NCBI RefSeq assembly: GCF_963921235.1
Contig: NC_086108.1
Location: 88,972,001 to 89,036,000, forward strand
DNA: 64,000 bases
Source: Mobula hypostoma
Taxonomy: Eukaryota
Reading direction: 5' to 3'
Shown one piece after another: positions 1-64,000 of the stretch. Positions within the stretch are counted from its first letter, which is position 1, and the number at the start of each line of letters is the position of its first letter. Below the pieces are notes generated by a model, which was not told the origin of the DNA, made no database searches, and saw only the letters and a list, made by a program, of their open reading frames with translations. A program made the position numbers and the translations under genes.

Positions 1-56
1 TTTCCACGTTCAATGAGCAACTGCGTAGAAAACCACCTATCATTCAAAATCATTTA

Positions 57-1892
57 TAGAAACATAGAAACATAGAAAATAGGTGCAGGAGTAGGCCATT
101 CGGCCCTTCGAGCCTGCACCGCCATTTATTATGATCATGGCTGATCATCCAACTCAGAACCCCGCCCCAGCCTTCCCTCCATACCCCCTGACCCCTTTAG
201 CCACAAGGGCCATATCTAACTCCCTCTTAAATATAGCCAATAAACTGGCCTCAACTGTTTCCTGTGGCAGAGAATTCCACAGATTCACCACTCTCTGTGT
301 GAAGAAGTTTTTCCTAATCTCGGTCCTAAAAGGCTTCCCCTCTATCCTCAAACTGTGACCCCTCGTTCTGGACTTCCCCAACATCGGGAACAATCTTCCT
401 GCATCTAGCCTGTCCAATCCCTTTAGGATCTTATACGTTTCAATCAGATCCCCCCTCAATCTTCTAAATTCCAACTAGTACAAGCCCAATTCATCCAGTC
501 TTTCTTCATATGGAAGTCCCGCCATCCCAGGAATCAATCTGGTGAACCTTCTTTGTACTCCCTCTATGGCAAAGATGTCTTCCCTCAGATTAGGGGACCA
601 AAACTGCACACAATACTCCAGGTGTGGTCTCACCAAGGCCTTGTACAACTGCAGTAGTACCTCCCTGCTCCTGTACTCGAATCCTCTCGCTATAAATGCC
701 AGCATACCATTCGCCTTTTTCACCGCCTGCTGTACCTGCATGCCCACTTTCAATGACTGGTGTATAATGACACCCAGGTCTCGTTGCACCTCCCCTTTTC
801 CTAATCGGCCACCATTCAGATAATAATCTGTTTTCCTATTTTTGCCACCAAAGTGGATAACTTCACATTTATCCACATTAAATTGCATCTGCCATGAATT
901 TGCCCACTCACCCAACCTATCCAAGTCACCCTGCATCCTCTTAGCATCCTCCTCACTGCTAACACTGCCACCCAGCTTCGTGTCATCTGCAAACTTGGAG
1001 ATGCTGCATTTAATTCCCTCATCCAAGTCATTAATATATATTGTAAACAACTGGGGTCCCAGCACCGAGCCTTGCGGTACCCCACTAGTCACCGCCTGCC
1101 ATTCTGAAAAGGTCCCGTTTATTCCCACTCTTTGCTTCCTGTCTGCTAACCAATTCTCCACCCACACCAATACCTTACCCCCAATACCGTGTGCTTTAAG
1201 TTTGCACACTAATCTCCTGTGTGGGACCTTGTCAAAAGCCTTTTGAAAATCCAAATATACCACATCCACTGGTTCTCCCCTATCCACTCTACTAGTTACA
1301 TCCTCAAAAAATTCTATGAGATTCGTCAGACATGATTTTCCTTTCACAAATCCATGCTGACTTTGTCCGATCATTTCACCGCTTTCCAAATGTGCTGTTA
1401 TCACATCCTTGATAACTGACTCCAGCAGTTTCCCCACCACCGATGTTAGGCTAACCGGTCTATAATTCCCCGGTTTCTCTCTCCCTCCTTTTTTAAAAAG
1501 TGGGGTTACATTAGCCACCCTCCAATCCTCAGGAACTAGTCCAGAATCTAACGAGTTTTGAAAAATTATCACTAATGCATCCACTATTTCTTGGGCTACT
1601 TCTTTAAGCACTCTAGGATGCAGACCATCTGGCCCTGGGGATTTATCTGCCCTTCAATTTACCTAACACCACTTCCCTACTAACATGTATTTCGCTCAGT
1701 TCCTCCATCCCACTGGACCCTCTGTCCCTTACTATTTCTGGAAGATTATTTATGTCCTCCTTAGTGAAGACAGAACCAAAGTAACTATTCAATTGGTCTG
1801 CCATGTCTTTGCTCCCCATAATCAATTCACCTGTTTCTGTCTGCAGGGGACCTACATTTGTCTTTACCAGTCTTTTCCTTTTTACATATTTA
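57..1892 (-). mobile_element. CR1 LINE, 5'-truncated young copy (RT domain + 3' UTR)
   Basis: ORFs 475..1611 and 154..474 give CR1 RT motifs (NYRPVSLTS, QHGF, YLDFQKAFDKVPH, GVPQGSVLGP, KFADDTK, RPHLEYCVQFWSP). They are in the same frame, split by a single stop at 475-477, with a frameshift near 1650. The (TTCTATG)n-type tail is at 57-80. Confidence 0.96.
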
Positions 1893-4599: not shown

Positions 4600-5960
4600 A
4601 CACTAATCCATAGCAGAGGTTATAATCTCAGCCAACTCCATCAAAAGCTCTAGCCTCCACATCATCAACGACATCTTCAAAAGATCCACTCACAAAATGC
4701 TGGAGGAACTCAGCAGGTCCCAGGCAGCATCTATGGAAAAGAGTACAGCTGAGACCTTTCATCAGGAATGGAGAAAAAAGATGAGGTCAGAATAGGAAAG
4801 TGGGGGAGGGGAGGGATGGAAGAAATACAAGGTGATAGGTAAAACAGGGAGAGAGAGGGGAGGAGGCGGAGTAAAGAGCTGAGAAGTGGATTGGTGAAAG
4901 AGATACAGGACTGGAGAAGGGGGAATATGATCAGAGAGGGTAGAGAACCATGGAAGAAAAAGGAGCAGCACTAGAGGGAGCTGATGGGCAAGTAGGAGAT
5001 GTGGCGAGAGAGGGAAACAGGAATGGGAAATGGTGAAAAGGGGTGGGTCAATCACTGGAAGTTTGAGATATCGACATTCATGCCATCAGGTTGGGGGTTA
5101 CCCAGACGTAATATAAGCTGTTGCTTCCCTAACCTGAGTGTGGCCTTATTATGACAGTAGAGAAGGCCACGGACTGACATGTTGGCATGAGAATGGGAAG
5201 TAGAACTAAAATGAGTGGGTACCAGGAGATCCCACTTTTTCCTGATGGGCAGAGAGCAGGTGCTCAGCGAAATGGTCTCCCAATCTACTTCGGGTCTCAC
5301 TGATATACAGGAGGCCACACCGGGAGCACCGGATACAGTAGAAGACCACAACAGACTCACAGGTGAAATGTCGCCTCACCTGGAAGGATTGTTTGGGGCC
5401 CTGAGTGGTAGTGAGGGAGGAGGTATAGGGGGTTGTGAGTCACTTGTTCTACTTGCAAGGATAAGTACCAAGAGCGAGGTCAGTCAGGAGGAACGAATAT
5501 ATAAGGGAGTTGAACAGGGAGTGATCCCTGCAGAAAGTGGAAAGTGGGGGAGGGAATGATGGGCTTAATGGTGGGATTCCATTGGAGGTGGCGGAATTTA
5601 CAACGAATTATGATCTGGACACGGTGGCTAGTGTGGTGGTAGGTGAGGACAAGAGGAACTCTATTCCTGGTGTGGAGGTGGAAGGATGGGGTAAGGGCGA
5701 TGTGCATGAAATGGAAAAGATATGGATGAGGGCAGCGTTGACGGTGGAGGAAGGAAAGCCCTTTCTTTGAAGAAGGAGGACACCTCAGTTGTTCTGAAAC
5801 AAAAAGCCTCATCCTGAGTGCAGATGCAGTGGAAACAGAGGAACTAAGATAATGGGATGACATTGTCACGTGATTTTTACATCTTCAAAAGATGATGCCT
5901 CAGAAAGGTGGCATAAATCATTAAGAAATCCCACCAACCAGAACATACCCTCTTGTCAGC
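4600..5960 (+). mobile_element. Old Rex1/Babar-like 3' fragment interrupted by a PLE (host parts ~4600-4685 and 5879-5960)
   Basis: The joined flanks read as a degenerate Rex-type C-terminus (…DIFKR.CL.K.A.IIK.P..P.H.LFS-like). Confidence 0.55.
4686..5878 (-). mobile_element. Penelope-like element, 5'-truncated, with 15-bp TSD
   Basis: Degenerate linker/GIY-YIG translation (RVPLVLTYH; HFSSTSHSHANMSVRGLLYCHNKATLRLGKQQLILRLG) and pLTR end at 4686-4770. ACATCTTCAAAAGAT occurs at both 4671-4685 and 5879-5893. Confidence 0.88.
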
Positions 5961-6044: not shown

Positions 6045-6145
6045 TTATGATGAAGGGTCTTGGCTAGAAATGTCAAATGTTGACTATTTATTCATTTCTA
6101 TAGATGTTGCCTGACCTGCTGAGTTCTTCTGGCATTTTGTGTGTC
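6045..6145 (+). mobile_element. PLE terminal (pLTR) fragment with degenerate hammerhead
   Basis: tgatgaagggtcttggctagaaatgtc...gatgttgcctgacctgctgagttc matches other PLE ends in the window. Confidence 0.65.
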
Positions 6146-6244
6146 TTGCTGGGTACATTTTATGCATTGCTCTGTAATGCTGCTATAAAGCAACACATTT
6201 CACAACAGTCAGTGATATAAACCTGATTCTGAAACTGATTCTAT

Positions 6245-7692: not shown

Positions 7693-8994
7693 GAATTTGA
7701 ATTCATTTATTTAAATCTTACATCCATCCCACAACGTGAGAGAGTAAAAATCTTTGTGTTATGTCTCCGTTACAATGTACTGCCATGTGAATTTATAAGT
7801 CTAATGGCTTGTAGAAAGAAGCTCCCCCCCCCCCCGGTAGCTTGTTGGTCCTTCCTTTAATGTTGAGGTACCGTTTGCCAGACAGAAGCGGCTGAAACAG
7901 TTTATGGTTGGGGTGACTGGTGTCCCTGATGATCTTCCAGGTCTTCTTTATGCACCTGCTGCTATAAATGTCCTCAATGGAGGGAAGTTCATGTCAACAG
8001 ATGTGCTGGGCTGTCCGTAACACTCTCTGCAGTGCCCAGTGATCAAGGTTGGTGCAGTTCCCATACCAGGCGGCGATACAGCCAGTCAGGATGCTCTGAA
8101 TGGTGCCCCTGTGGAAGGTCTTGAGGATTTGGTGGCCAATGCTGAACACCTTCAGTCGCCTATGGTAGAAGAGATGCTGTTGTGCTTTTTTTTTTGCCAG
8201 ACAGTCGGAGAGTACAGTACAGATGGGATCATTGGGGATGTGTATACTGAGGAACTTGAAGCTACTCATCCTCTTAACTGCAGACCCATTGAGCCTGTCT
8301 CCATTACTCCTGTTATCCACAATCAGCTCCTTTGTTTTTTGGACATTGAGGGAGAAGCTGTTATCTTGGCACCACTGTGTCAGGGTGTCAACCTCTCCAC
8401 TGTAGGCTGTCACTGCTAGAAATAAGGCCAATCAATGATGTGTCACCTGCAAATTTGATTAGAAGATTGGAGCTGTGGGAGGCAGCACAGTCGTGGGTGT
8501 AAAGGGAGTAGTGGAGGAGACACAGGACACAACTCTGGGGGGAACCTCCGTTGAGGGTTAGAGGGGCAGAAGTGATGGAGCCCATCCTTACCACCTGTTG
8601 GTGATCCAATAGGAAGTCCACAATCCAGCTGCACAAGACAGAGTGAAAGCTGAGGTCTCTGAGCTTCCTGTCAAGTCTGGAGGGAATTATGGTGTTGAAT
8701 GCTGAACTATAGTCCAGGAACAGCATTCTAATGTATGCATCCCTCTTCTCCAGGTGAGTGAGGATGGTGTGTAGTGCTGTGGCTATGGTGCTGTTGGTAG
8801 ACCGGTTCGTCAGTAGGCAAATTGTAGGGGGTCTAGTGCGGGTGGTAGCATGCTGCAGATGTAGTCTTTAACCAGCCTCTCAAAGTATTTGCTTATTATT
8901 GGGGTTAGTGCTACAAGGCGCCGATCATTCAGGCATGCTACCTTGGTATTCTTAGATACAGGGATAATGATGGATGATTTGAAACAGGAGGCAC
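7693..8994 (-). mobile_element. Rex1/Babar LINE, 5'-truncated, frameshifted RT
   Basis: ORF pieces [82 protein letters not shown]. Confidence 0.9.
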
Positions 8995-10097
8995 TACACA
9001 GTGCAGGCCCAATATAACAAAAACTTGTTATGACCCTGATCAAAACAGTTTCGTCAATTAACATTCCATGTACCATCCTAAGCATTTGCTCCCTCTTCCT
9101 GTAATGCACGTTTTACACAATTCACTGTGGCAAGACACTAAAGACTCTATTCAAGTATGTAACATCTTCCATGAAAGAGCAAGCGAGAGGCAAATGGGTT
9201 CACCAGCTGTAAAACTGTCATCCTGATTTAGTCTCACATTACAGTTCCTTCATTTTTCCCTACGAACTGGTGATCACTATCCAACTGCCATGTTTAGCAT
9301 CAGTAGTTCAAAGAGATAGCTCAACACCATCTTAAAACAATTCTGGTGTGTGATTCATTCTGGGAGGGCACTCAAACCTGAATAAATCTTTTAAATCTGA
9401 GTCATTTTAGTTCAAAGCACAATTCTACTGTACACCAAGATAACCACTGCCATCATGAATGGATGTCTATTAAACAAAATTCAAGGGAATGAGTGTATTT
9501 AGTCATGGGACTTAGAGGAAAGTTAAATATAGAATCGTAGAATAGAAGGGCTGTGCACAGAAGGAGGTAATTTAGCTCACTGAGGCCAAGTTGCTTGTAG
9601 AGAAAGTGCCATTCCTCTGCTATTTCCTTGTAAATTATTTTCCACCAACTATCCAATTACCCCTTGAAATCTCTATGTTTCTGCCTCATTAACAGACAAT
9701 GAGTTCCAGATTATAAGTTATCTCTGTGTAAGCATAAAGTCAAGTAAAATTTGTTTTCAGCACATGGTTGAAGCTACTACCATTTTGAGTATTCTATAAT
9801 TTACTGCTTTAAGGTTCAGTACACTTCCACTACATCCTGTCCTCTAAGTAGCTAGGTGGCAGGAAAATTGGTTGGGGAGAAGGGCAGTTAATGGGCATTT
9901 GAGGGAGCACAGGAAATGGGCTTGTTCTGAGAGCAAGCATAGACTCAAAGAGCTGCATAGCCTCTTTCTGTGTTGTAAGGATGTTCAAAATATGAGGAAG
10001 GATGTGATAGCGCTACAGAGTATGCAGAGGAGATTTCCAAGTGTGCTACAAAGGCTGAAGGGTTACAGTTATGCTGACCATCTTGCACCTATTTATT

Positions 10098-11106
10098 ATA
10101 GAAACATAGAAACGTAGAAAATAGGTGCAGGAGTAGGCCATTCGGCCCTTCGAGCCTGCACTGCCATTCAGTATGATCATGGTTGATCATCCAACTCAGA
10201 ACCCTGTACCTGCCTTCTCTCCATACCCCCTGATCCCTTTAGCCACAAGGGCCATATCTAACTCCCTCTTAAATATAGCCAATGAACTGGACTCAACTGT
10301 TTCCTGTGCCAGAGAATGCCACAGATTCACCACTCTCTGTGTGAAGAAGTTTTTCCTCATCTCAGTCCTAAAAGGCTTCCCCTTTATCCTCAAACTGTGA
10401 CCCCTCGTTCTCGACTTCCCCAACATCGGGAACAATCTTCCTGCATCTAGCCTGTCCAATCCCTTTAGGATTTTATACGTTTCAATAAGATCCCCCCTCA
10501 ATCTTCTAAATTCCAATGAGTATAAGCCTAGTCGATCCAATCTTTCATCATATGAAAGTCCTGCCATCCCAGGAATCAATCTGGTAAACCTTCTTTGTAC
10601 TCCCTCTATGGCAAGAATGTCTTTCCTCAGATTAGGGGACCAAAACTGCACACAATACTCCAGGTGTGGTCTCACCAAGGCCTTGTACAACTACAGTAGT
10701 ACCTCCATGCTCCTGTACTCGAATCCTCCTGCTATGAATGCCAGCGTACCATTCGCCTTTTTCACCGCCTGCTGTACCTGCATGCCCACTTTCAATGACT
10801 AGTGTACAATGACACCCAGGTCTCGTTGCACCTCCCCTTTTCCTAATCGGCCACCATTCAGATAATAATCTGTTTCCCTGTTTTTGCCACCAAAGTGGAT
10901 AACCTCACACTTATCCACATTAAATTGCATCTGCCATGAATTTGCCCACTCACCTAACCTATCCAAGTTACCCTGCATCCTCTTAGCATCCTCCTCACAG
11001 CTAACACTGCCGCCCAGCTTCATGTCATCCATAAACTTGGAGATGCTGCATTTAATTCCCTCGTCTAAGTCATTAATATATATTGTAAACAACTGTGGTC
11101 CCAGCA
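10098..11106 (-). mobile_element. CR1 LINE, 5'-truncated, same subfamily as 57-1892
   Basis: Near-identical to 57-1065; ORFs 10196..10690 and 10799..11107. Confidence 0.96.
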
Positions 11107-11314
11107 TTATATCCTATTTACCGGCACTTGGTCTGTAGCCTACCGATATATTGGAAATTTTGCTGCTCATTTAGATGCCCCTTCAATATTCCAATTGTAT
11201 CTGTCTCCATTTCCTTCTCAGTTCCACACTGCAACACACCTCAGGTGAAAATAATCTTTCATCAGATCTTTGCTGAACTTATCCTGCACTTTAAAGTTAT
11301 CCTGAACTTATCCT

Positions 11315-11348
11315 GTCCTGACGAAGGGTCTCGGCCTGAAACGTTGAC
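11315..11348 (+). ncRNA. Minimal type I hammerhead ribozyme motif
   Basis: GTC-CTGACGA-AGG(GTCTCGG)CCT-GAA-ACGT-T-GAC: both core boxes, stem II, palindromic ACGU in place of stem III, GUU cleavage triplet and a 3-bp stem I. Confidence 0.75.
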
Positions 11349-11408
11349 TGTACCTCTTCCTAGAGATGCTGCCTGGCCTGCTGCGTTCACCAGCAACTTT
11401 GATGTGTG
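11315..11408 (+). mobile_element. Solo PLE 3' end (~95 bp)
   Basis: Almost identical to 31164-31257 and 54388-54478. Confidence 0.9.
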
Positions 11409-11704
11409 CTGTACTTTAAACCTACACCTTCTGGTTTTAGTTATTTCTGCCACAAGAAAAATGTTGCTATTATCCACCTTGTCGATGCTCCCTGTCATAA
11501 TTTTATCAATTAGGTCCACATTTGGACTCCCTCACTCTAAGGAAAACAAACCTAGTCTATACAGAGCTTCCTTGTAACTAAAACATTCCATCTGAAGCAA
11601 CATGCTGGTGAATCTCTCTGCATATTTTTCATTTATGATAGGCCAAGTTGTCTCAAATGCTGCAAAATTCTAAAATTCAACGACATAGATAGGACAGAGC
11701 GATC

Positions 11705-12012
11705 CTTTTGGATCAGGACTACAGACCGTCATGGGAGCTGAATTCTGAAGGAAGGCAGTTTGTTTAAAAACTTCTTCGAGTGCAAGGAGGACGAGACTGC
11801 GCAGGCGCATGACGTCAACAGGACAACGCGGAGGGTTTAAAAAGGAAGGTTGCTACCAACGGCTGTCTTTTGGATTCGGACTACAGAGCGTCGTGGGAGC
11901 TGAATTCTGAAGGAAGGCAGTTTGTTTAAAAACTTCTTTGAGTGCCAGGAGGATGAGACTGCGCAGGCGCGTGACGTCAACAGGGCAGCGCGGAGAGTTT
12001 AAAAAGGAAGGT
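11705..12012 (+). repeat. Two 146-bp direct monomers (11705-11850, 11867-12012) at the CR1 5' end
   Basis: Direct alignment with period 162. Each contains TGCGCAGGCGC, TGACGTCA and TTTAAAAA. Confidence 0.92.
11798..11843 (+). promoter_or_regulatory. Putative promoter module: NRF1-like site, CRE and TATA-like element (second copy 11960-12005)
   Basis: TGCGCAGGCGCA at 11798-11809 abuts TGACGTCA at 11810-11817, with TTTAAAAA ~20 bp downstream. Motif match only. Confidence 0.45.
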
Positions 12013-15000
12013 CTATGTACCAATGACATGGATAGGACAAAGGAGGAGGTCCTGAAGAGAGATTTCTAGGAGTTAGGAAGGAAGCTGAGAAGCAGGACCT
12101 CCAGGGCAGTAATCTCGGGATTGCTACCTGTGCCACGTGCTAGCGAGGGCAAGAATGGTAGGATCAGGCAGATGAATGCGTGGCTGAGAGACTGGTGCAG
12201 GGGGCAGGGCTTCAGATTCTTGGATAATTGGGATCTCTTCTGGGGGAAGTATGACCTGTTCAAAAAGGACAGGTTACACCTGAACCCGAAGGGAACCAAT
12301 GTCCTGGTGGGAAAGTTTAATAGAGCTGTTAAGGAGGGTTTAAACTAATCCGGCAGGGGGATGGGAACCGGAATGACAGAGCGGAGGAAGGGGAAAACAG
12401 AAATAAATCTAAGATAGTGAGCAGTAAAGATGTCAGGAAAGACAGGCAGGTGATGGGGCAAATTTGTAGCCATTGGGATGACTTGCAGTGCAATAAAGTT
12501 GCAGTGAAATCAAAGTGAAAAGTACCAAATACTGGTCTTAAGGTGTTATACTTAAATGCACGCAGCATAAGGAAAAAGGTGGATGATCTTGTCGTACAGC
12601 TACAGATTGGCAGGTATGATATTGTGGCCATCACTGAGATGTGGCTAAAGGATGCATGTCTCTGGGAGCTGAATGTCCAAGGATACATGGTGTATCGGAA
12701 GAATAGGAAGGTAGGCAGAGGGGGAGGCGTGGCTTTATTGGTCAGAAATGATATTAAATCATTAGAAAGAGGTGATATAGGATCGGAAGGTGCAGAATCT
12801 TTATGGGTTGAGCTAAGAAATCGCAGGGATAAAAGGACCCTGATGGCAGTTATTTATAGGCCTCCAAACAGCTGCAGTGATGTGGACTACAAATTACAAC
12901 AGGAAATAGAAAAGGCTTGTCAGAAGGGCAGTGTTATGATAATTGTGGGGGATTTTAACATGTGAGTGGATTGGGAAAATCAGGTCAGCACTGGATCTCA
13001 AGAGAGAGAATTTGTAGAATGTCTGCGAGATGGCTTTTTAGAACAGCTTGTTGTTGAGCCCACTAGGGGATCGGCTGTACTGGATTGGGTATTGTGTAAT
13101 GAACAGAAGGTGATTAGAGAGATTGATGTGAAGGAGCCCTTAGGAGGCAGTGATCATAACATGATTGAGTTCACTGTGAAATTTGAAAAAGAGAAGCTGA
13201 AATCTGATGTGTCGGTATTTCAGTGGAGTAAAGGAAATTACAGTGGCATGAGAGAGGAACTGGCCAAAATTGACTGGAAAGGGACACTGGCGGGAAAGAT
13301 GGCAGAGCAGCAGTGGCTGGAGTTTATGCGAGAAGTGAGGAAGGTGCAAGACAGGTATATTCCAAAAAAGAAGAAATTTTCGAATGGAGAAAGGATGCAA
13401 CCGTGGTTGACAAGAGAAGTCAAAGCCAAAGTTAAAGCAAAGGAGAGGGCGTAGAAGGAAGCAAAAATTAGTGGGAAGACAGAGGATTGGGAAGTTTTTA
13501 AAAGCTTACAAAAGGAAACTAAGAAGGTCATTAAGAGGGAAAAGATTAACTATGAAAGGAAGCCAGCAAATAATATCAAAGAGGATACTAAAAGCTTTTT
13601 CAAGTATATAAAGGGTAAAAGACAGGTGAGAGTAGATATAGGACAGATAGAAAATGATGCTGGAGAAATTGTAATGGGAGATAAGGAGATGGCAGAGGAA
13701 CTGAATGAGTATTTTGCATCAGTCTTCACTGAGGAAGACATCAACAGTATACCGGACACTCAAGGGTGGCAGGGAAGAGAAGTGTGCGCAACCACAATTA
13801 CGACAGAGAAAGTACTCAGGAAGCTGAATAGTCTAACGGTAGATAAATCTCCCGGACCAGATGGAATGCACCCTCGTGTTCTGAAGGAAGTAGCTGTGGA
13901 GATTGTAGAGGCATTAGCGATGATCTTTCAAGAGTCGATAGATTCTGGCATGGTTCCGGAAGACTGGAAGATTGCAAATGTCACTCTGCTATTTAAGAAG
14001 GAGGCAAGGAAGCAAAAAGGAAATTATAGACCTGTTAGCTTGACACTGGTGGTTGGGAAGTTGTTGGAGTCAATTGTCAAGGATGAGGTTACGGAGTACC
14101 TGGAGGCATATGACAAGATAGGCAGAACTCAGCATGGATTCCTTAAAGGAAAATCCTGCCTGACAAACCTATTACAATTTTTGGAGGAAATTACAAGTAG
14201 GCTAGACAAGGGAGATGCAGTGGATGTTGTATATTTGGATTTTCAGAAGGCCTTTGACAAGGTGCCTCACATGAGGCTACTTAACAAGATAAGAGCCCAT
14301 GGAATTACGGGAAAGTTACATATGTGGATAGAGCATTGGCTGGTTGGCAGGAAACAGAGAGTGGGAATAAAGGGATCCTATTCTGGTTGGCTGCCGGTTA
14401 CCAGTGGTGTTCCACAGGGGTCCATTTTGGGGCTGCTTCTTTTTACATTGTACATCAACGATTTGGATTATGGAATAGATGGATTTGTGGCTAAGTTTGC
14501 TGATGATACGAAGATGGGTGGAGGGGCCAGTAGTGCTGAGGAAACGGAGAGTCTGCAGAGAGACTTGGATAGATTGGAAGGATGGGCAAAGAAGTGGCAA
14601 ATGAAATACAATGTTGGAAAGTGTATGGTTATGCACTTTGGCAGAAGAAATAAATGGGCAGACTATTATTTAAATGCAAAAGAATTCAAAGTTCTGAGAT
14701 GCAATGGGACTTGAGAGTCATAGTACAGGATACCCTTAAGGTTAACCTCCAGGTTGAGTCGGTAGTGAAGAAAGCGAATGCAATGTTGGCATTCATTTCT
14801 AAAGTATAGGAGCAGGGATGTGATGTTGATGCTCTATAAGGCGCTGGTGAGATCTCACTTGGAGTACTGTGGGCAGTTTTGGTATCCTTATTTAAGAAAG
14901 GATGTGCTGACGTTGGAGAGGGTACAGAGAAGATTCACTAGAATGATTCTGGGAGTGAGAGGGTTAACATATGTGGAACGTTTGTCCACTCTTGCACTGT

Positions 15001-15689
15001 ATTCCTTGGAGTTTAGAAGAATGAGGGGAGACCTCATAGAAACATTTCAAATGTTGAAAGGCATGGACAGAGTGGATGTGGCAAAGTTGTTTCCCATGAT
15101 GGGGGAGTCTAGTATGAGAGGGCGTGACTTAAGAATTGAAGGGCGCCCATTCAGAACAGAAATGCGAAGAAATTTTTTTAGCCAGAGGGTGGTGAATCTA
15201 TGGAATTTGTTGCCACGGGCGGCAGTGGAAGCCAAGTCATTGGGTGTATTTAAGGCAGAGATTGATAGGTATCTGAGTAGTCAGGGCATCAAAGGTTATG
15301 GTGAGAAGGTGGGGGAGTGGAACTAAATGGGAGAATGGATCAGCTCATGATAAAATGGTGGAGCAGACCCAATGGGCCGAATGGCCGACTTCTGCTCCTT
15401 TGTTTTATGGACTTATGGTCAATAATGAACTGTGATGAAACTCTAACCCTGAATAAGATCAAAGAAAGTAGCGCAGTCCATTGAAAGCTTTGCCTCCTTT
15501 CAATTACATCTTTATGTGTAGGACATCAAATCTCATCCAACAATATTTGCAGTTGAAAAAATCTCTAAGAAGTGCCAGTATTTGATAAATTCAAAATTTT
15601 GCTTTCTTATATATTAAATGCTATCAGATTATCAGATTTTCACGAAGAAAGGAAGTTTAATTTGCTCCTACATTCAGAAAAAGATTATA

Positions 15690-18585: not shown

Positions 18586-19207
18586 AGCAAATTCCAAATG
18601 CATATAAATGTATATATCGAATAAAGTTGATCCTTGATTTAAGACAAAGATGAAGTGAAATATTTTAATTTTAGAGGGTCATAAGTCTTTGAAACTCTTC
18701 CTCAAAGAGCTTGGAAGCAATGTCTGAATAGTTTAAACTTTGATGTAAATACTTAGATACTTGTTAAGCAAGGGTGTGAAAATTAGCACAGGTAGATGGG
18801 AATCAAAATTTAGATTACATTTAAATAAGCCATGATCCTATAAAGAGGCAGAGAAGGCTGAGTGGCCTAATCCCATTCCTAATTATGTCTGTTCAGCTGT
18901 ATAACGTAATTAAAGTTGAGTTGATTTTCAGAAGACTTGGTGGGGGGGGAAACTTGAAAAATATTGCCACTCAGAGGATGATGGGAGTTTATAATGTATA
19001 AGTTACAAAGAAGGCAGAAAAGCTCGTCATATTTAAAAATCACCCGGTGAAACACAAAACCCTAAAGGAGTATGGACCACAAACAGGAAAGTGAAATTAG
19101 GCTGGAAATCTTTTCAGCTGGGATGGTTATAATAAACCAATTATCCACCTTTTCTGTTATAATCATTTATGATTCTACTCCAAAAGAATAGGAATGTCTA
19201 TATTTTT

Positions 19208-21022
19208 GACCATAAGACCATAAGACAAAGGTGCAGAAGTTGGCCATTCGGCCCATCGAGTCTGCTCCTCCATTTTATCATGAGCTGATCCATTCTCACA
19301 TTTAGTCCCACTCCCCCACCTTCTCACCATAACCTTTGATGCTCTGGCTACTCAAATACATTTCAATCTCTGCCTTAAATACACCCAATGGCTTGGCCTC
19401 CACTGCCACCCGTGGCAACAAATTCCATAGATTCACCACCCTCTGGCTAAAAAAATTTCTTCACATCTCTGTTCTGAATGGGCACCCTTCAATCCTTAAG
19501 TCATGCCCTCTCGTACTAGACTCCCTCATCATGGGAAACAACTTTGCCACATTCACTCTGTCCATGCCTTTCAACATTCGAAATGTTTCTATGAGGTCCC
19601 CCCTCATTCTTCTAAACTCCAAGGAATACAGTCCAAGAGTGGACAAACGTTCCTCACATGTTAACCCTCTCATTCCCAGAATCATTATAGTGAATCTCCT
19701 CTGTACCCTCTCCAAAGTCAGCTCATCCCTTCTTAAATAAGGAGACCAAAAATGCCCACAGTACTCCAAGTAAGGTCTCACCAGCGCCTTATAGAGCCTC
19801 AACATCACATCCCTGCTCCTATACTCTATTCCTCTAGAAATGAATACCAACATTGCATTCGCCTTCTTCACTACCGACTCAACCTGGAGGTTAACCTTAA
19901 GGGTATCCTGCACAAGGACTCCCAAGTCCTGTTGCATCTCAGAACTTTGAATTCTCTTCCCATTGAAATAATAGTCTGCCCGTTTATTTCTTCTGCCAAA
20001 GTGCATAACCATACACTTTCCAACATTGTATTTCATTTGCCACTTCTTTACCCATTCTTCCAATCTATCCAAGTCTCTCTGCAGACTCTCTGTTTCCTTA
20101 GCACTACCAGCCCCTCCACCTATCTTTGTATCATCAGCAAACTTAGCCACAAAGCCATCTATTCCATAATCCAAATCGTTGATGTACAACGTAAAAAGAA
20201 GCGGCCCCAACATGGACCCCTGTGGAACACCTTATCCACATATGTAACTTTCCACCAATGCTCTATCCACATATGTAACTTTCCCGTAATTTCACGGGCT
20301 CTTATCTTGTTAAGTAGCCTCATGTGTGGCACCTTGTCAAAGGTCTTCTGAAAATCCAAATATACAACATCCATCACATCTCCCTTGTCTAGCCTACTTG
20401 TAATTTCCTCAAAAAATTGTAATAGGTTTGTCAGGCAGGATTTTCTTTTAAGGAAACCATGCTGAGTTCTGCCTACCTTGTCACATGCCTCCAGGTACTC
20501 CGTAACCTCATCCTTGACAATCGACTCCAACAACTTCCCAACCACCAATGTCAAGCTAACAGGTCTATAATTTCCTTTTTGCTTCCTTGCCCCCTTGTTA
20601 AATAGCGGAGTGACATCTGCAATCTTCCAGTCCTTTGGGACCATGCCAGAATCTATTGACTTTTGAAAGATCATCACTAATGCCTCCGCAACCTCCACAG
20701 CTACTTCCTTCAGAACACGCGGGTGTATTCCATCTGGTCCGGGAGATTTATCTACCTTTAGACTATTCAGCTTCCTGAGTACTTTCTCTGTCGTAATTCT
20801 GACTGCGCACACTTCTCTTCCCTGCCACCCTTGAGTGTCCGGTATACTGCTGATGTCTTCCTCAGTGAAGACTGATGCAAAATACTCGTTCAGTTCCTCC
20901 GCCATCTCCTTATCTCCCATTACAATTTTCCAGCATCATTTTCTATCGGTCCTATATCGACTCTCACCTGTCTTTTACTCTTTATATACTTGAAAAAGCT
21001 TTTAGTATCCTCTTTGATATTA
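19208..21022 (-). mobile_element. CR1 LINE, 5'-truncated, same subfamily as 11678-15420
   Basis: ORFs 20159..20920 and 19461..20213 are near-identical to the 13626..15326 products; (GACCATAA)n tail. Confidence 0.96.
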
Positions 21023-21849
21023 ATTTTGCATTTGTCTCTTCATATATACCAGCATATGCTTAAACTACACTTCATCTTGTAACTGATTTTGAAAAAAAAT
21101 CAAGTCAGCCGTTTAAATAACACCATGACCTTTTAAAATGATTTCAAATTCAAGCTCTTGCTTTATCCATACAAAGTAAAAATGAAGATACTTTTAAAAT
21201 CTAGTCCCCTCATTTAATATTCTGGCCATTGTAAGTAGATGGTACTTAAAAAGAATTATTTTATCATGATTCCATGTGATTGATCCTTGCTATAATTAAC
21301 CACTTGGACTACAATGCAGCTGCTTCAAAAATAAAAAAAAAACATTTTTTTGTGTCTGACATTCTGTGTGCATATATTAATGTGTTTCATTGTAGTGGGC
21401 TTTGCCATGACTGGAGAGGGGTAAGTGCCTGGAACAGGCTGCCGGGATAGTGGTAGTAGCAAATATGATGATAGCTTTGTTCTGCTGACATAATAACTAA
21501 GTTATTGAGCTGGCTGGCAATGTTCTGGGCCATAGATCCAGAGAAACAAGTTTTATTCCACTATGGCATCTTCTTAAGGAGGTCTTTTAAAAAGCACATT
21601 TTTATAAGTGCATAGATATGAGGGTTTTAAAGGGATAAAGTGGACAAATAGGACAAGCTTGGTGGACACGTTGGTCTGGATGGATGAGCTGGGCTGGAGG
21701 GCCTGTTTCCGTGCTTTATTACTTCATAGCTCTATTTGGGGAATTTAAACCTAAATAATGTCCTTTAGGGCGGAAGGCTCTCATCCTTACCAATTTGGTC
21801 TACATTTAACTCCCAAATCGAAGCAATGTGGTTGGGCCTCAAACAAAGC

Positions 21850-27169: not shown

Positions 27170-27960
27170 TAAAGTTTAAAAATCTGAAAATACTGGAAAA
27201 CTGACAGAGAAAACAGAAAAAGCTCGATATATATTCAGCAGAACAGGCAGCATCTGTAGAAAGAGAAACATTTTACAATCCAAATCCAGGAGCCTCTGTC
27301 AGAACTGGGCAAGAGGGAAAACAAATCTATTTTAAGTAACAGAGAAAGTTGAGAGAGGTGATGAGTAGAAATAACTCCAGGGGAGACTAAATGACTTGTA
27401 GTTGGCATTTACATAGCTACTAAAATCAGCTTAAACTTCCTTGTCTGTCCAGTGTTTTAATGGTAAGGTTGTGAGGCAACCCTAGCAGGACAGAATCAAG
27501 AATAAAAAAGTAAAACTGACCCAGCGTGACAGATAGAAATGGCCAATTCTGACACACAGAGAGAAAGAGAGTTATCTGATTTGGAGACTTCAGTATTAAG
27601 TCAAAAAGATTATAATGGTAGAGAAAGATGAGGTACAGTTTCCTAAGCTTGCATTGAGCTTTATTGCAACAGTGCAAGATGGCCATGTGTGAATGGGATG
27701 GTGAATTAAAACGCCTGGCAATTGGAAGCTTGGGGTTATTACACAGGTGCTCTGCAGAATGATCACTTAATCTATTTTTTTCTCTCTCCTGTATAAAGGA
27801 GGTCACATTACGAGCAATGACAGCAGTTCACTGGATTGGAAGAAGTGATGATGAATTGAGCTTTACTTGGAAAGACAGCTTGAGTCGCTGGATGATGGGA
27901 AGGGAAGAGAAGAAAAGATAGGCATTTCACCTCATGTGCTTGCATGGCAAGTAGACAAAC
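27170..27960 (-). mobile_element. Old Penelope-like element
   Basis: RLSDHSAEHL...PIARRFNSPSHSH...LHCCNKAQCKL...LIF (GIY-YIG C-terminal part); pLTR end at 27170-27310. Confidence 0.75.
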
Positions 27961-30648: not shown

Positions 30649-31257
30649 GACCGCTTTGCTGAACACCTACGCTCTGTCCACCAAAGAAAGCAGGATCTCC
30701 CAGTGGCCACATATTTTAATTCCACATCCCATTCCCATTCTGACATGTCTATCCACGGCCTCCTCTACTGTAAAGATGAAGCCACACTCAGGTTGGAGGA
30801 ACAACACCTTATATTCCGTCTGGGTAGCCTCTAACCTGATGGCAAGAACATCGACCTCTAACTTCCACTAATGCCCCACCTCCCCCTCGTACCGCATCCG
30901 TTATTTATTTTTATACACACATTCTTTCTCTCACTCTCCTTTTTCTCCCTCTGTCCCTCTGACTATACCCCTTGCCCATCTTCCGGTTCTCCCTCCGCTT
31001 GTCTTTCTCCCTGGACCTCCTGTCCCATGATCCTCTCATATCCCCTTTGCCAATCACCTGTCCAGCTCTTGGCTCCATCCCTCCCCCTCCCGTCTTCTCC
31101 TATCATTTTGGATCTCCCCCCCTCTCCCACTTTCAAATCTCTTACTAACTCTTCCTTCAGTTAGTCCTGACAAAGGGTCTCGGCCTGAAACGTCGACTGC
31201 ACCTCTTCCTAGAGATGCTGCCTGGCCTGCTGCGTTCACCAGCAACTTTGATGTGTG
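30649..31257 (+). mobile_element. Young Penelope-like element, 5'-truncated, with 12-bp TSD
   Basis: DRFAEHLRSVHQRKQDLPVATYFNSTSHSHSDMSIHGLLYCKDEATLRLEEQHLIFRLGSL; ATGCTCTATTAT at both 30637-30648 and 31258-31269. Confidence 0.93.
31163..31198 (+). ncRNA. Hammerhead motif with a G8-to-A core change
   Basis: AGTC-CTGACAA-AGG...CCT-GAAACGTC-GACT. Confidence 0.65.
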
Positions 31258-31304
31258 ATGCTCTATTATCATCAGACCCATTTAATATTTTATTAAATAT
31301 TAAA

Positions 31305-31572
31305 GTCCTGTTCAGTCCTGATGAAGTGTCTCAGCCTGAAATGTCAACTGTTTATTCACTTGCTGCCTGACCTGCTGAATTCCTTATACATTTGTGTGTG
31401 TTATTCTGAATTTCCAGCATCTGGAGAATCGTAAGCACGAGGAAGTCTGCATATGCTGCAAATACAAACCAACACATACAAAATGCTGGAGGATTCAACA
31501 GGTCAGGCAGCATCTATGGAGAGGAATAAACAGTCGATGTCTTGGGCTGAGACCCTTAGTCAAGATTCCCTT
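31305..31572. mobile_element. Two PLE terminal fragments in tail-to-tail inverted arrangement
   Basis: Plus copy 31313-31430 and minus copy ~31435-31570; each has a degenerate hammerhead. Confidence 0.7.
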
Positions 31573-34286: not shown

Positions 34287-35400
34287 TGAATGTTGAATTT
34301 AATATTCATACACACACACACATAATGTTGGGGGAACTCAGCAAGCCAGGCAGCATCAACGGTGTTGGCATTTATTCCCCTCCTTCGATGCTGCCTGATT
34401 TGCTGAGTTCCTCCAACATGTTGAGTGTGTTGTACAAGATTTCCAGCATCTGCAGAATCTCTTGTGTTTAGAATTTAATATTGAGACCAGAGGGGCTATT
34501 ACATTCCTAATAAAACGTTAAGAAGATTTTCATCAAGTTCAAATTAATTGAGTTTCACCGAGATGTTATCGGGGAGGGGGGTGGGTCAAAGGAAGAGAGG
34601 TCAGAGTAGAAGTGGTATGTAGAGATAAAGTGAGAGGGACTTGGCTCCCCATGGACTGAATGGGAGTATTCAGTGAACTGTCACCCATTTTGTACCTGAT
34701 TACTTCATTGGGGAGGTGCCCATATGGTAAACACCAATCACAATACTTTAAATTGGATGAAGTGCAAATGAGCCACTGCTTCTTTTGGGATGAGTGTTTG
34801 GGTTTCAGAATGGAATTGAAGTAGAGAAGTAAGAGGGCGCCTCTCCTGCAGAAGTATGGGAAGATGCCATCATTTATTGTTGATGGAGATGGAAAAGTAA
34901 AGCAGGGAAACACAGGGAAATTTATTTTTGGAATGCTGAGAAAGGGAATCTTGGGAAAGATGTATCTGATGGTAGCATTGTAAATAATGATCTGTTATAG
35001 AGATATGTGGAGTGGCAAATGACAAGGGGAACACTATTCTTTATCTGAAAGAAAACCAGAAAACAGTGGAAATACTCAGCAGCCAAGGCAGTATCAATAG
35101 AAACAGAAACAGGCTTAACTTTTCAGGTTGAAGACTTCTGATCAGATGTTCTAACAAAAGATCTTCAAAATGAAATGCTAGCTCTGTTTCTTTCTCTACA
35201 TATGCTGCCTGACTTGTTTAATATTTTCATAATTTTCATATTTATTTTGTATTTCTGGCATCTGCAGTTTTTTGATCTCTATCTGGCTTTGGGCGATGAG
35301 AGAAGGACTGAGAGTAGAAATGTGACATGTGGTTGAAAGCCCAATCAACTATAGTAGAGGGAGACCACTGACAGGGATAAATAGACAAAACCCCTGAAGC
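34287..35400 (-). mobile_element. Very old PLE remnant carrying two small nested inverted PLE-end insertions
   Basis: Degenerate ICTSSNLKYCDWC (GIY-YIG start); nested pieces at 34307-34470 and ~35050-35278. Confidence 0.55.
34307..34470. mobile_element. Mini inverted PLE-end insertion with 12-bp TSD
   Basis: Minus arm 34307-34372 and plus arm 34373-34470; GAATTTAATATT at both 34295-34306 and 34471-34482. Confidence 0.8.
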
Positions 35401-40329: not shown

Positions 40330-40415
40330 TACAAATGAAAAAGTAATTTAGCAGGTCGGGCAGCATCCGTGGAAAAGATCAGTCGATGTTTCGGGCCGGA
40401 ACCTTTCGTCAGGAC
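40330..40415 (-). mobile_element. Solo PLE end of a second subfamily with hammerhead motif (40381-40415)
   Basis: Minus strand GTC-CTGACGA-AAGGTTCCGGCCC-GAAACATC-GAC, followed by GGATGCTGCCCGACCTGCT. Confidence 0.7.
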
Positions 40416-40779: not shown

Positions 40780-42103
40780 TTACAAAATGCTGTAGGAGCT
40801 CAGCAGGCCAGGCAGCATCTATGGAGAAGAGTAAACGGTGAACATTTCAGGCCGAGACACTTCATCAGGTCTGGAAAAAAGGGATTGGAAGTCAGGATTA
40901 GAAGGTAGGGGGAAGAGGGGAAGAAGTGCAAGGTAGATTGTGATAGGTGAAACAGGAAAAGGGGGATGGGTGAAATAAAGAGCTGGAAAGTCAAATGGTG
41001 AAAGACATTTGGAGGCTACCCAGAGGAATATAAGGTTTTGCTTCTCCAACCTGAGTGTGCCCTCATTGCAGCAATAGAGGAGGCCATGGACTGACATGTT
41101 GGAATGTGAATGGGAAGTAGAAATGAAATGTGTGGCCACCGGGAGATCCTGCTTCTTCTGCTTGATGGACTGTAGGTGCTTGGCGAAGCAGTCTCCCAAT
41201 CTACATTGGGTGTCACCGATACACAGGAGCCCACACTGTAGATGACCTCAACAGACTCACAGATGAAGTGTCACCTCGCTTGGAAGGACTGTTTGGGGCT
41301 CTGAATGGTAATGAGGGAGGAGATGCAGGGGCAGGTGCAGCACTTGTTCTGCTTGCAAGGATAAGTGCCAGGAGGGAGCTCAGTTCCCCTGTGAGTCTGT
41401 TGGGGTCATCTACTGTATCCAGTGCTCCTGCTGTGGCTTTCTGTATGACAGTGAGATCCAAAGTAGACTGGGAGACTGTTTCGTTGAGCACTTTTGTTCC
41501 ATCTGCCAGAAAAAGCAGGTTCTCCCAGTGACAACCCATTTCAATTCTACTTCCCATTCCCATTCTCTCATGTTAGCTCATGGCCTCCTCCAATGCCGCA
41601 ATGAGACCACACTCAGACTGGAGGAGCAGCACCTTCTAGTCCGCCTGGGTAGCCTCTAACCTGATGGCGTGAATATCAATTTCTCGAACTTCTGGTAGTT
41701 GCCACCCCCCACATCTCACTTCTCCTTCACCATTCGCCATTCCCATTTCCCTCTCTCACCTTATCTCCTTACCTTCCTAGCACCTCCCTCTGGTGCTCAT
41801 CCCACTTCCCTTTCTTCCATGGCTTTCTGTCCTCTCCTATCAGATTCCTCCTTCTCCAGCCCTGTATCTGTTTCATCAATTGACTTCCCAGCTCTTTACT
41901 TCACTCCTCCCCCTCTTCTGGGTTTACCTTTTACCTTTTACCTTCCCCCACCTTCTTAGCCTGACTTCTAATCTCTTTGTTCCAGTCCTGGTGAACAGTC
42001 TCAGCCCGAAACTTCGACTGTTTACTCTTTTCCATAGATGCTGTCTGGTCTGTTAAGTTCCTCCAGCATTTTGATTTACAGTCTATAGATTTTCTCTTGT
42101 TTG
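40780..42103. mobile_element. Inverted two-armed PLE insertion (minus arm ~40780-41380, plus arm ~41389-42103)
   Basis: Both arms carry GIY-YIG remnants and pLTR ends. TGATTGCTTTAC at both 40768-40779 and 42104-42115. The flanks rejoin into one old SINE. Confidence 0.88.
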
Positions 42104-51407: not shown

Positions 51408-51675
51408 ACACACACAAATGGCAGCATCTATGGAAAGGAACAAACAGTCAATGTTTCAGACTGAGATCCTTCATCAGGACTGGAAAGCGGGGGTGGGGGG
51501 TGGAAGAAGTCTATCAGATTCCTTCCTCTTTGTCCCTCCACCTTTTCCACTCACCCCATCCCTCCCCCACCCCACCCATCCACTTTCCCCCTCACCTGGC
51601 TTCACCCAACATCTGCACTCCTTCCCCTCCTGCCACCCTTTCACTCTGAGCTCCTTCTTCCTCGACCCAATGAAG
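51408..51675. mobile_element. Small inverted PLE-end insertion
   Basis: Minus pLTR arm 51408-51510 and plus pyrimidine-rich arm 51511-51675; TTAGAAGT on both sides. Confidence 0.6.
51445..51482 (-). ncRNA. Hammerhead motif with 5-bp stem I
   Basis: Minus strand CAGTC-CTGATGA-AGG(ATCTCAG)TCT-GAAACATT-GACTG. Confidence 0.6.
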
Positions 51676-54387: not shown

Positions 54388-54478
54388 GACGAAGGGTCTC
54401 GGCCTGAAATGTCGACTGTACCTCTTCCTAGAGATGCTGCCTGGCCTGCTGCGCTCACCAGCAACTTTGATGTGTGTT
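54388..54478 (+). mobile_element. Solo PLE 3' end truncated inside the hammerhead core
   Basis: Starts GACGAAGGGTCTCGGCCTGAAA; near-identical to 11320-11408. Confidence 0.88.
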
Positions 54479-55914
54479 GCACCCTTTCAATTTGGCTGGT
54501 TGTCCACTGAAAAAGAAGAACTTGAGAAAGGGTTCTGGTGTTAAATCTGGCAGACCCTCATTAACTGGAATTTCCAGGCTTCACCACCTAACACTACCTG
54601 ACTGCAACCTCATTCCCCCTCTGCCCCAGTCTATCATGTTTCATATTTACCTTCTGTAATGAGGGCTAATCATGATACTTTCCCAAACTAATGGAGCCAA
54701 TTATCCTATTCATGTTGACAGCCAGCAAAACATCTTTGTAGTTAATATTCTGTATATATTATATATATATTATCTGGCTCTATCAAGGTGTGATGATGTG
54801 TGATGACTAGTGAGACCCTGGGTACTGTATTTACTGACAAACATCTCCTTAACAAATTATGATGGCATTCGGAATGAGGGCTCACTATTGTGGTGAATAA
54901 ATAGGTTGAAATAGTTATACAAGTACGATGAAGAGCAGATTCACAAAGTTGAAAAATAATCACAGCATAAGGTATACTTAATGTATAGGTATTTACCTTC
55001 ACAATTCTGGCAGTGTAATTCTTGTGATAGATATTCACTTCTATCTCATGCTTGCTTTCTAAATAGTAGCTGCCGTTTGAAAGGGCACAAACAGTTGTAA
55101 GAAAACTTCCAACCATATGTCTTTGTTTAACTTCTATTCAGTCTTCAGTTCTTAAAGTGTAAATGGAAAGTACCTTGAAGTTAAAAAAAAACAATCTTTA
55201 TAGAACAGCTTTGCAAACAGACCCTATATTTTGAAGATGCTCTGTCTGTAAAGAGTCACTCACCTGTTTTATTACTACTCAAGAGTGGAATGTAAGGCAA
55301 TGGATTGTGTAATTTGGGTGGTTTCAAACAGACAAGCTGACTCTTAAGTTACTTATTTCAAGGTAGCTTGCAGAACCAGATAGAAAGTATCATTTAGTGT
55401 ATCAATAACTGATGTGCTATAGTTGGAAGAGTTCTATGTACTCAGAAGTTAGCTTTACAACATCAATGGTAGCTAGCTATGATCTATATCTCCAAGAATG
55501 CTTTCAGACTCTTAATGTCTCCTAAGGCTAGCTGAGGAAACATCACATGCTTGTAAAGTCACCCAAGTGGCTGGAAAGGGTATAAATATAGAGAGCAGTT
55601 CATGCTTGTTAGTAATGAGATAAGGAACATTGTGAAACATGGCAGAACTAGAGTCCATTCATCCAGCTTCAGTTTCTGCAATGGACAACTTGTTTGGCTG
55701 CATCTTTGATATGTCATCTGAGTTGATAGGAATTGTACCTGTGTTTTTGAAATCCTTAATCCTTCATGTTTGAGATATGCTTTGTGCTTTGTGCTCTCCA
55801 AATAGCTTCTGTTTTAGAAATGGTTTGTAATTGGAAAATGTTTAAGATAGTAATCCTCGGTGAGGTTTAACTGTGTTTTAAAAGTGGTATGTGGATTTAA
55901 AGATGTATCACTGT

Positions 55915-63822: not shown

Positions 63823-64000
63823 GTCATTCTTGCTCCTAGGGCATTGACTAAGAAGAGAATGGAGAAGGATAACCTTCGCAAGGAATTGCGTGAACATTTT
63901 CAAAAGTATTGCAGATATGTGAGAGGGAAAGCAAAAGGTTAGTTTTTGTAAGAATTGTCACAGGTCAATGACCTGAAAAACCTCTTCTGATGTACTGATT

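What the first reader, a model, noticed from the sequence alone, without database searches (positions are those of the whole stretch)
11315..11348. Hammerhead ribozyme motifs in Penelope-like element ends, dispersed across the window
Seen: GTC-CTGACGA-AGG(GTCTCGG)CCT-GAA-ACGT-T-GAC, i.e. a CUGANGA box, stem II, a GAAA box, a self-complementary ACGU and an NUH site, closed by stem I. Related copies are at 31163-31198, 31313-31350, 40381-40415(-), 40838-40872(-), 41983-42020, 51445-51482(-) and 54388-54418, with more decayed ones near 4745, 6050 and 31535. Stem I (CAGTC/GACTG) complementarity is retained in several. Known: PLEs carry minimal type I hammerheads that lack a stable stem III and are reported to cleave as dimers. 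Inference: this genome is seeded with many potentially self-cleaving cassettes, and copies within one pre-mRNA could pair through ACGU.
Basis: partly seen in the sequence, partly recalled or inferred. Interest (0 to 1): 0.75.

Follow-up and report, generated by a model that had tools for sequence, protein, structure and literature searches.

The report
Hammerhead ribozymes in Penelope transposon fragments
These motifs are real copies of a tiny, predicted self-cutting RNA fold already known from Penelope-like jumping genes, left behind in tens of thousands of shortened insertions; in this window only one copy keeps all its parts, so they are likely silent debris rather than a network of RNA cutters.

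Summary
Observation confirmed. 11315-11348 is a minimal type I hammerhead at the 5' end of a 94-bp insertion with a 12-bp target-site duplication. It belongs to an endonuclease-bearing Penelope-like element (RT, C-x4-C-x2-C linker, GIY-YIG; Neptune/Nematis type), probably in a cartilaginous fish. A 34-nt motif has 41,517 exact genomic copies; intact elements carry one per pseudo-LTR, about 3.5 kb apart. Distant relatives keep core and palindrome with changed stems. This is the published PLE minimal hammerhead.

Of eight named copies only 11315 keeps both core and ACGU, with a 3-bp stem I and a GUU site. The family's stem II is GGGU/GCCY after a bulged A. Cores decay at the neutral rate (7/693 versus 19/1848). 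No host transcript was shown.

Extras: 5' ends of young copies pile up at the ribozyme's front edge (2,260 at -3 versus 85-204 at five controls), likely the template's 5' end. A smaller excess at the cut site (536) is partly microhomology and inconclusive. About 85% of exact copies carry G10.1-U11.1. The scan noted this family and the pile-up before, on other DNA of this genome.

The parts
11315..11348 (+). Minimal type I hammerhead: stem I 5' strand GTC (3 bp only), CUGACGA 11318-24, bulged A 11325, stem II GGGU 11326-29 / loop CUCG / GCCU 11334-37 (G10.1-U11.1 wobble), GAAA 11338-41, palindrome ACGU 11341-44, H17 = U 11345 (family C), predicted cut 11345/11346
   Evidence: family base C at 11345
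11315..11408 (+). 94-bp 5'-truncated PLE insertion of the young subfamily (96% identical to a full-length copy), no tail, 5' end at the family's modal position -3
11284..11295 (.). Left target-site duplication copy CTGCACTTTAAA
   Evidence: sequence; similar duplications
11409..11420 (.). Right target-site duplication copy CTGTACTTTAAA (11 of 12 identical)
11296..11314 (.). 19-nt junction filler that repeats the flank at 11275-11286; likely a templated end-joining insertion (inferred)
30649..31262 (+). 614-bp young truncated copy with GIY-YIG C-terminus and 3' UTR; hammerhead 31163-31198 has G8A, stem I 5 bp, ACGU intact
31313..31429 (+). Older copy; core intact, palindrome AUGU, stem I junction pair broken
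31440..31565 (-). Older copy with tail, tail-to-tail with 31313; four core changes
40350..40415 (-). Older copy; core intact, C11.1, ACAU instead of ACGU, stem I 4 bp
40801..41384 (-). Older copy with GIY-YIG remnant; hammerhead 40838-40872 with AUGU and broken stem I; head-to-head with the 41381 copy
41381..42075 (+). Older copy with GIY-YIG remnant; hammerhead 41983-42020 has A6G and ACUU
51420..51482 (-). Older short copy; core intact, stem I 5 bp, ACAU instead of ACGU
54388..54480 (+). Young short copy truncated inside the core (lacks C3, U4 and the stem I 5' strand)
4693..5859 (-). Old 1.1-kb copy with RT-thumb/GIY-YIG remnant; hammerhead near 4745-4790 partly deleted
6045..6150 (+). Old short copy truncated in the core
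27236..27320 (-).
34316..34469 (.). Head-to-head pair of old 3' ends truncated downstream of the hammerhead

Best explanation
The motifs are the minimal type I hammerhead of a very abundant endonuclease-bearing Penelope-like retrotransposon (likely Neptune clade), carried along in 5'-truncated insertions; it is predicted to cut only as a dimer, likely between the two pseudo-LTRs of the element's own RNA and with help from the element's protein, so the lone copies in this window are likely silent. Shown: the full element (pLTR with hammerhead, tail, ORF of about 1,010 aa, about 300 nt of 3' UTR, second pLTR with hammerhead about 3.5 kb on), two alternative 3' ends, target-site duplications, head-to-head inversions, neutral decay of inserted cores, and 5' ends piling up at -7..+7 of C3 whether or not the copy has the tail. 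Inferred: the GIY-YIG domain nicks DNA and the RT starts 70-100 nt 3' of the cut site, as shown in vitro for the Anolis element. When it starts in the 5' pLTR it runs off the nearby 5' end of a mostly uncut RNA, which yields the 95-140-bp copies that begin at the ribozyme's front edge, like 11315. Selection keeps the ribozyme only in the transposing lineage.
For: Whole elements with a hammerhead in both pLTRs (L149, L152, L153, L166). RT and GIY-YIG; homologs in a bamboo shark and marine invertebrates. Minimal hammerheads beside related ORFs in 14 of 80 metagenome loci, with invariant core, bulged base, G10.1, ACGU (once AGCU) and different stems. Core mutation rate equals flank rate, 7/693 versus 19/1848. 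1 of 8 named copies is intact. 5' ends: 44 of 149 young copies at -7..+7; tail and no-tail medians +1 and -1, p=0.70; genome-wide 2,260 at -3 against 204, 85, 199, 166 and 155 at -15, +27, +29, +31 and +44. Papers: monomer inactive and dimer weak (PMC4209133); cleavage needs the PLE protein and is not required for insertion in vitro (PMC11167929).
Against: No cleavage or RNA end was observed; only contigs were available. Stem pairing in the relatives is partly built in, because my descriptor required 3 bp in stems I and II. Four of five full-length copies have 5' pLTRs reaching 245 nt or more upstream of the hammerhead, and some short copies end at -10 to -57, so a single RNA start at the ribozyme edge cannot explain all copies. 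Pfam scores for RT and GIY-YIG are below the curated cut-offs. Neptune was not separated from Nematis by a tree. The neutrality test has low power (26 changes).
Confidence: 0.8

Rival explanations
1. One reading: dispersed copies in host pre-mRNAs pair through ACGU and cut the host transcript at a rate that matters.
For: About 12 exact motifs per Mb, so long genes will often hold two sense copies (inference). 11315 has an intact enzyme half and 31163 an intact substrate half on the same strand, 20 kb apart. In Xenopus, retrozymes are under-represented in introns (bioRxiv 10.64898/2026.07.22.740005, passages read).
Against: The half-dimer has 7 intermolecular bp, -5.5 kcal/mol against an MFE of -9.5; the homodimer -8.1 against -24.3. 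Only 1 of 8 copies is intact. There is no faster loss of core bases. 70 of 149 young copies sit beside an inverted arm that would fold them into a long hairpin (folding inferred). Published dimers are slow or protein-assisted. No host gene was shown.
Confidence: 0.07
2. The ribozyme is a decaying passenger even in the active element: the dominant subfamily has weakened it and transposes from uncut RNA.
For: About 85% of exact copies have G10.1-U11.1 instead of G-C, as do 21 of 21 hammerheads 3' of long ORFs (the query came from such a copy). Its computed dimer is 5 kcal/mol weaker. Few copies start at the cut site. Naiad PLEs multiply without one (PMC8557442).
Against: All core bases, the palindrome and stem I stay intact in the youngest copies, while the 12 nt just 3' of the motif differ between subfamilies. 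G-U still pairs and occurs in a distant relative (L310).
Confidence: 0.15
3. The short units are a separate non-autonomous element (SINE or retrozyme) amplified from its own master.
For: Many copies are 95-140 bp and begin at the ribozyme.
Against: 5' ends are scattered over dozens of positions and continue smoothly into 3' UTR, GIY-YIG and RT sequence. Junctions are all different. Short and long copies share the same diagnostic bases. I saw no tandem arrays in the window.
Confidence: 0.03

Closest known systems
Minimal hammerheads (min-HHR) in pLTRs of metazoan PLEs, including Neptune, Poseidon and Xena of fishes, coelacanth and Xenopus (Cervera and de la Pena 2014, PMC4209133)
   Same: Type I topology, no helix III, palindromic 15.2-16.2, unpaired base between 9 and 10.1, short helix I, location in both pLTRs, mostly single truncated copies.
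   Different: Copy number (41,517 exact matches to one 34-nt motif, against about 4,000 and 9,000 min-HHRs reported for coelacanth and Xenopus); dominant G10.1-U11.1; 4-bp helix II; cartilaginous fish not named in the sections I read.
Poseidon element of Anolis carolinensis, PAc (Frangieh et al. 2024, PMC11167929)
   Same: RT plus C-terminal GIY-YIG, hammerhead in the pLTR, two 3' ends that define a 30-40-bp tail downstream of the ribozyme.
   Different: Here the first in-frame ATG after the tail lies well 3' of the ribozyme instead of in stem II, and there is a Zn-finger-like linker (Neptune/Nematis type).
Neptune/Nematis EN+ PLEs (Craig et al. 2021, PMC8557442; Arkhipova et al. 2013, PMC3846280)
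   Same: CX2-5CxxC linker, partial tandems, inverted 5'-truncated copies, one-sided tail, target-site duplications.
   Different: No (TA)n targeting was evident in the flanks I read; duplications of 9-15 bp were found in 19 of 32 short non-inverted copies.
Non-LTR retrozymes of animals (bioRxiv 10.64898/2026.07.22.740005)
   Same: Type I hammerhead derived from PLE pLTRs; reported in one chondrichthyan.
   Different: Retrozymes are tandem non-autonomous units; these are dispersed truncations of an autonomous element.

Membership tests
PLE minimal type I hammerhead | Core CUGANGA / GAAA / NUH in type I order, closed by stem I | tested here: met
PLE minimal type I hammerhead | No helix III; palindromic A15.1-N-N-U16.1 | tested here: met
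   ACGU in 16 of 17 aligned rows, AGCU in 1; the descriptor allowed 2-8 nt there
PLE minimal type I hammerhead | Unpaired base between 9 and 10.1, and G10.1-C11.1 | tested here: met
   Bulge and G10.1 in all 17 rows; G-C in 14, G-U in 3 including 11315
PLE minimal type I hammerhead | Stem covariation across elements | tested here: met
   7 of 9 pairs change on both sides, 94.8% of cells paired, score 0.79 versus 0.22 shuffled; partly built in by the descriptor; no covariation within this genome's subfamilies
PLE minimal type I hammerhead | Self-cleavage as a dimer | not testable with these tools
   Only folding energies and contigs
EN+ Penelope-like element | Single ORF with RT and C-terminal GIY-YIG | tested here: met
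   1,041-aa open frames with YIDD and GVIYC..LYIGET; Pfam RVT_1 E 1e-5 and GIY-YIG E 8e-4, both under the curated cut-off; homolog annotations
EN+ Penelope-like element | Partial tandem pLTRs, inverted 5' copies, 30-40-bp tail, TSD | tested here: met
EN+ Penelope-like element | Spliceosomal intron in the pLTR (optional; ends at helix I in D. virilis) | tested here: inconclusive
   A branch-point-like sequence, pyrimidine tract and CAG end at -7, but 0 of 30 copies ending at -6..-9 join an upstream exon and no GT-AG joint to this acceptor was among the joints shown
Neptune clade | CX2-5CxxC linker between RT and EN (shared with Nematis) | tested here: met
   CKQNKCYTC; definition from PMC8557442
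Neptune clade | Placement in the RT phylogeny | not tested
   No named reference PLE proteins were at hand
Non-LTR retrozyme | Tandem non-coding units, each with a hammerhead | tested here: not met
   Dispersed truncations continuous with ORF sequence

The most novel reading that the evidence does not exclude
The tens of thousands of insertions are a fossil record of the RNA templates the element copied in the germ line: most began at the ribozyme's front edge, and about 1% began exactly at the scissile bond. That would be genomic evidence that a Penelope hammerhead cuts in vivo and that the cut RNA is still retrotransposed, while the dominant subfamily has tuned the ribozyme down with a G10.1-U11.1 wobble.
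Probability: 0.2. Interest if true: 0.6.

Novelty: new member of a known kind. Interest (0 to 1): 0.3.

Why it matters
The ribozyme-in-Penelope arrangement is published, so the finding itself is ordinary. What is useful is scale: a young family with over 40,000 exact motifs and intact 1,041-aa frames gives statistical power for two open questions. One is whether PLE hammerheads cut in vivo; the other is where PLE reverse transcription ends. If dispersed copies did cut host pre-mRNAs it would be a genome-wide mutagenic load, but the evidence here points against that.

Tried and rejected
Rfam scan of the window: 0 matches at E up to 1, so Rfam neither confirms nor excludes a minimal hammerhead. 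Monomer folding of six copies: z-scores -0.45 to +1.28, and none takes the hammerhead fold; uninformative, as expected for a motif without helix III. Footprint of cleavage in 5' ends: 536 at the scissile bond against 85, 199, 166 and 155 at controls, but in 30 inspected loci 8 are inverted arms joined through GAC/GACT microhomology and, by my reading, only about 4 have a clean genomic flank (about 4, 1-2 and 3 of 15 in three controls). A residual of up to about twofold is not conclusive. Spliced copies: none in 30. Host gene: my exon scan of 214 kb gave only unrecognised candidates, which were not searched against protein libraries. Sequencing runs: no RNA holder listed; the laid contigs cover only the repeat and show no start or end pile-ups, which contigs cannot show. 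The stem I counts printed are distorted by alignment gaps; I used instead. Lunse et al. (RNA Biol, PMC5785218) is not held and is cited only through a review. A search for Penelope + elasmobranch + genome + hammerhead ribozyme gave 0 papers.

Full report
Observation. The motif is at 11315-11348 (+) as described, and the other named copies are where stated. The loose core pattern is not above chance (9 versus 6.1). A strict minimal-hammerhead descriptor gives 5 cores, 3 with stem I of at least 3 bp and 1 also with ACGU, against 0.70, 0.07 and 0 in 200 shuffles. Rfam reports nothing. The window is G000:C50:88972001-89036000 in a 3.48-Gb genome. A 34-nt version of the motif has 41,517 exact matches (reversed control 0), and a 31-nt stretch 3' of it has 63,448.

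What carries it. Loci around the motif run upstream into a pyrimidine-rich 3' UTR, a GIY-YIG domain and an RT. Twenty loci chosen for long frames include two 1,041-aa open frames and four elements with a hammerhead on both sides of the ORF, 3,462-3,728 nt apart. Pfam matches RVT_1 (E 1e-5) and GIY-YIG (E 8e-4), both below the curated cut-offs. Of 796 homologs, the best named are from Chiloscyllium punctatum (71% and 67%), so the host is probably a cartilaginous fish (inference). The linker CKQNKCYTC fits the CX2-5CxxC motif of Neptune and Nematis (PMC8557442, passages). Copies have two 3' ends about 35 nt apart (the PLE tail) and head-to-head inversions (70 of 149 young copies). Duplications of at least 9 bp flank 19 of 32 short non-inverted copies by a simple exact-match search that counts two artefacts. 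The 11315 copy is a 94-bp truncation flanked by a 12-bp duplication (11284-95 and 11409-20) with a 19-nt filler that repeats the flank.

Is it a hammerhead? In 80 metagenome loci encoding related proteins, my descriptor gave 19 rows. Sixteen, in 14 loci, are minimal hammerheads; I dropped 3 as likely chance. One per locus plus three from this genome were aligned. Core bases, the base after A9 and G10.1 are nearly invariant, 7 of 9 pairs change on both sides, and the palindrome changes once to AGCU. Pairing of 3 bp in stems I and II was required by the descriptor, so that part is built in; the bulge, G10.1 and the palindrome were not. This alignment and local folding set stem II as GGGU-CUCG-GCCY after an unpaired A, as in the published consensus (PMC4209133; parts 1-2 of 4 read), not AGG/CCT.

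Are the window's copies active? Only 11315 of the eight keeps both core and ACGU, and it has a 3-bp stem I and GUU from CpG decay (family C). The other seven carry G8A, A6G, loss of C3-U4 or loss of the palindrome. In 264 kb of unselected DNA there are 6 motifs with core and ACGU, 3 of them with a 5-bp stem I; the nearest such one on the plus strand is about 123 kb from 11315. In 77 young copies, non-CpG core positions changed at 7/693 and 3' flank positions at 19/1848 (p = 1.0): no sign of selection for or against, with low power. Computed double-hammerhead energies are -8.1 (11315), -12.9 (young, U11.1) and -17.9 kcal/mol (C11.1), against dimer MFEs of -24.3, -31.7 and -36.5. The 11315/31163 half-dimer is -5.5 against -9.5. 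These models ignore tertiary contacts and proteins. Published PLE minimal hammerheads are inactive as monomers and weak as dimers (PMC4209133). The Anolis one cleaves only with its protein, is dispensable for insertion in vitro, and left no RNA-seq ends at its site (PMC11167929; parts 1-2 of 4 read). A review says they likely work as dimers (PMC6765202, passages). Whether the window is transcribed could not be settled.

Where copies stop. In 149 young copies picked only by their 3' end (of 192; both arms of inverted pairs counted, a few end calls are indel artefacts), 44 have their 5' end at -7..+7 of C3. The rate is 2.6 per 100 nt at 0..-14, 0.3-0.4 at +31..+60 and 0-0.2 at -60..-299. Tail and no-tail copies stop at the same place (medians +1 and -1, p = 0.70; a 35-nt shift is rejected, p = 6e-8), so the stop is set by template position, not cDNA length. 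Genome-wide counts of ends with three non-family flanking bases agree: 2,260 at -3, 204 at -15, 85 at +27, 536 at +28 (the scissile bond), 199 at +29, 166 at +31 and 155 at +44 (pattern bodies differ and were not normalised). I read the front-edge peak as run-off at the RNA's 5' end after internal RT initiation in the 5' pLTR; TCAGTT at -10..-5 resembles an initiator (motif recalled). Against a single start: four of five full-length copies have longer 5' pLTRs. The same stretch resembles a splice acceptor, and the D. virilis intron ends at helix I (PMC4209133; PMC2377424, passages), but 0 of 30 copies ending there carry an upstream exon. The +28 excess is partly explained by microhomology with inverted arms and is left open.

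Subfamily change. About 6,044 exact copies have C11.1 (slightly different pattern), so about 85% of exact copies have G10.1-U11.1, as do 21 of 21 hammerheads 3' of long ORFs (biased by the query). That G10.1-C11.1 is highly conserved is stated in PMC4209133; its effect on rate here is untested.

Comparison and verdict. This works like, and is, a PLE minimal hammerhead: a new member of a known kind. I did not find the cartilaginous-fish family or the 5'-end pile-up in five paper searches; a preprint reports retrozymes in one chondrichthyan (first part and passages read). Also consulted as passages: PMC3846280 and PMC6155905. Supplements were not read and may list shark or ray motifs. Earlier notes of this scan describe the same family, the fold-backs and the pile-up on other DNA of this genome (read after my). 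They are unchecked AI notes, not independent support. Interest 0.3.

Noticed in passing
family positions -23..-7 (e.g. window 31140-31160, L152:4840-4858): Branch-point-like TACTAAC/TACTCAC, pyrimidine tract and CAG just before stem I: looks like a 3' splice acceptor and could act as a cryptic acceptor in host introns.
   Followed up: partly
window 31313-31565: Two old PLE ends lie tail-to-tail, the reverse of the usual head-to-head arrangement; one may have inserted into the other's tail.
   Followed up: no
L052, L068/L069, L074/L075, L077/L078: In head-to-head pairs one arm has the tail and the other does not, which fits two RT starts on the two ends of one break.
   Followed up: partly
window 54-1654, 10096-11106, 13568-15426, 19202-21025: CR1-like LINE copies; 13568-15426 and 19202-21025 form a 1.9-kb inverted pair at 91% identity, and 54-1064 / 10096-11106 a direct pair at 94%.
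   Followed up: no
window 55926-57723 (-), 48248-49386 (-), 7994-9112 (-): Broken RT frames of other LINE types (RTE-like and L2/Rex-like by appearance; names recalled, only RVT_1 tested).
   Followed up: no
window 11705-12012: A 146-bp direct repeat (92%) spaced 162 bp apart, just upstream of a CR1 ORF1-like frame.
   Followed up: no
window 63840-63918 (+): Unique-sequence candidate exon with good splice signals encoding a charged helix-like peptide; not searched.
   Followed up: no
L307:1008-1052 (-): Metagenome PLE hammerhead with the U3-A8 core swap described for Schistosoma elements.
   Followed up: no
runs X1, X3, X5, X9 (coded organisms A, B, C): Near-identical copies of the young subfamily occur in runs of other coded organisms or samples, so the burst may be shared with relatives.
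   Followed up: no
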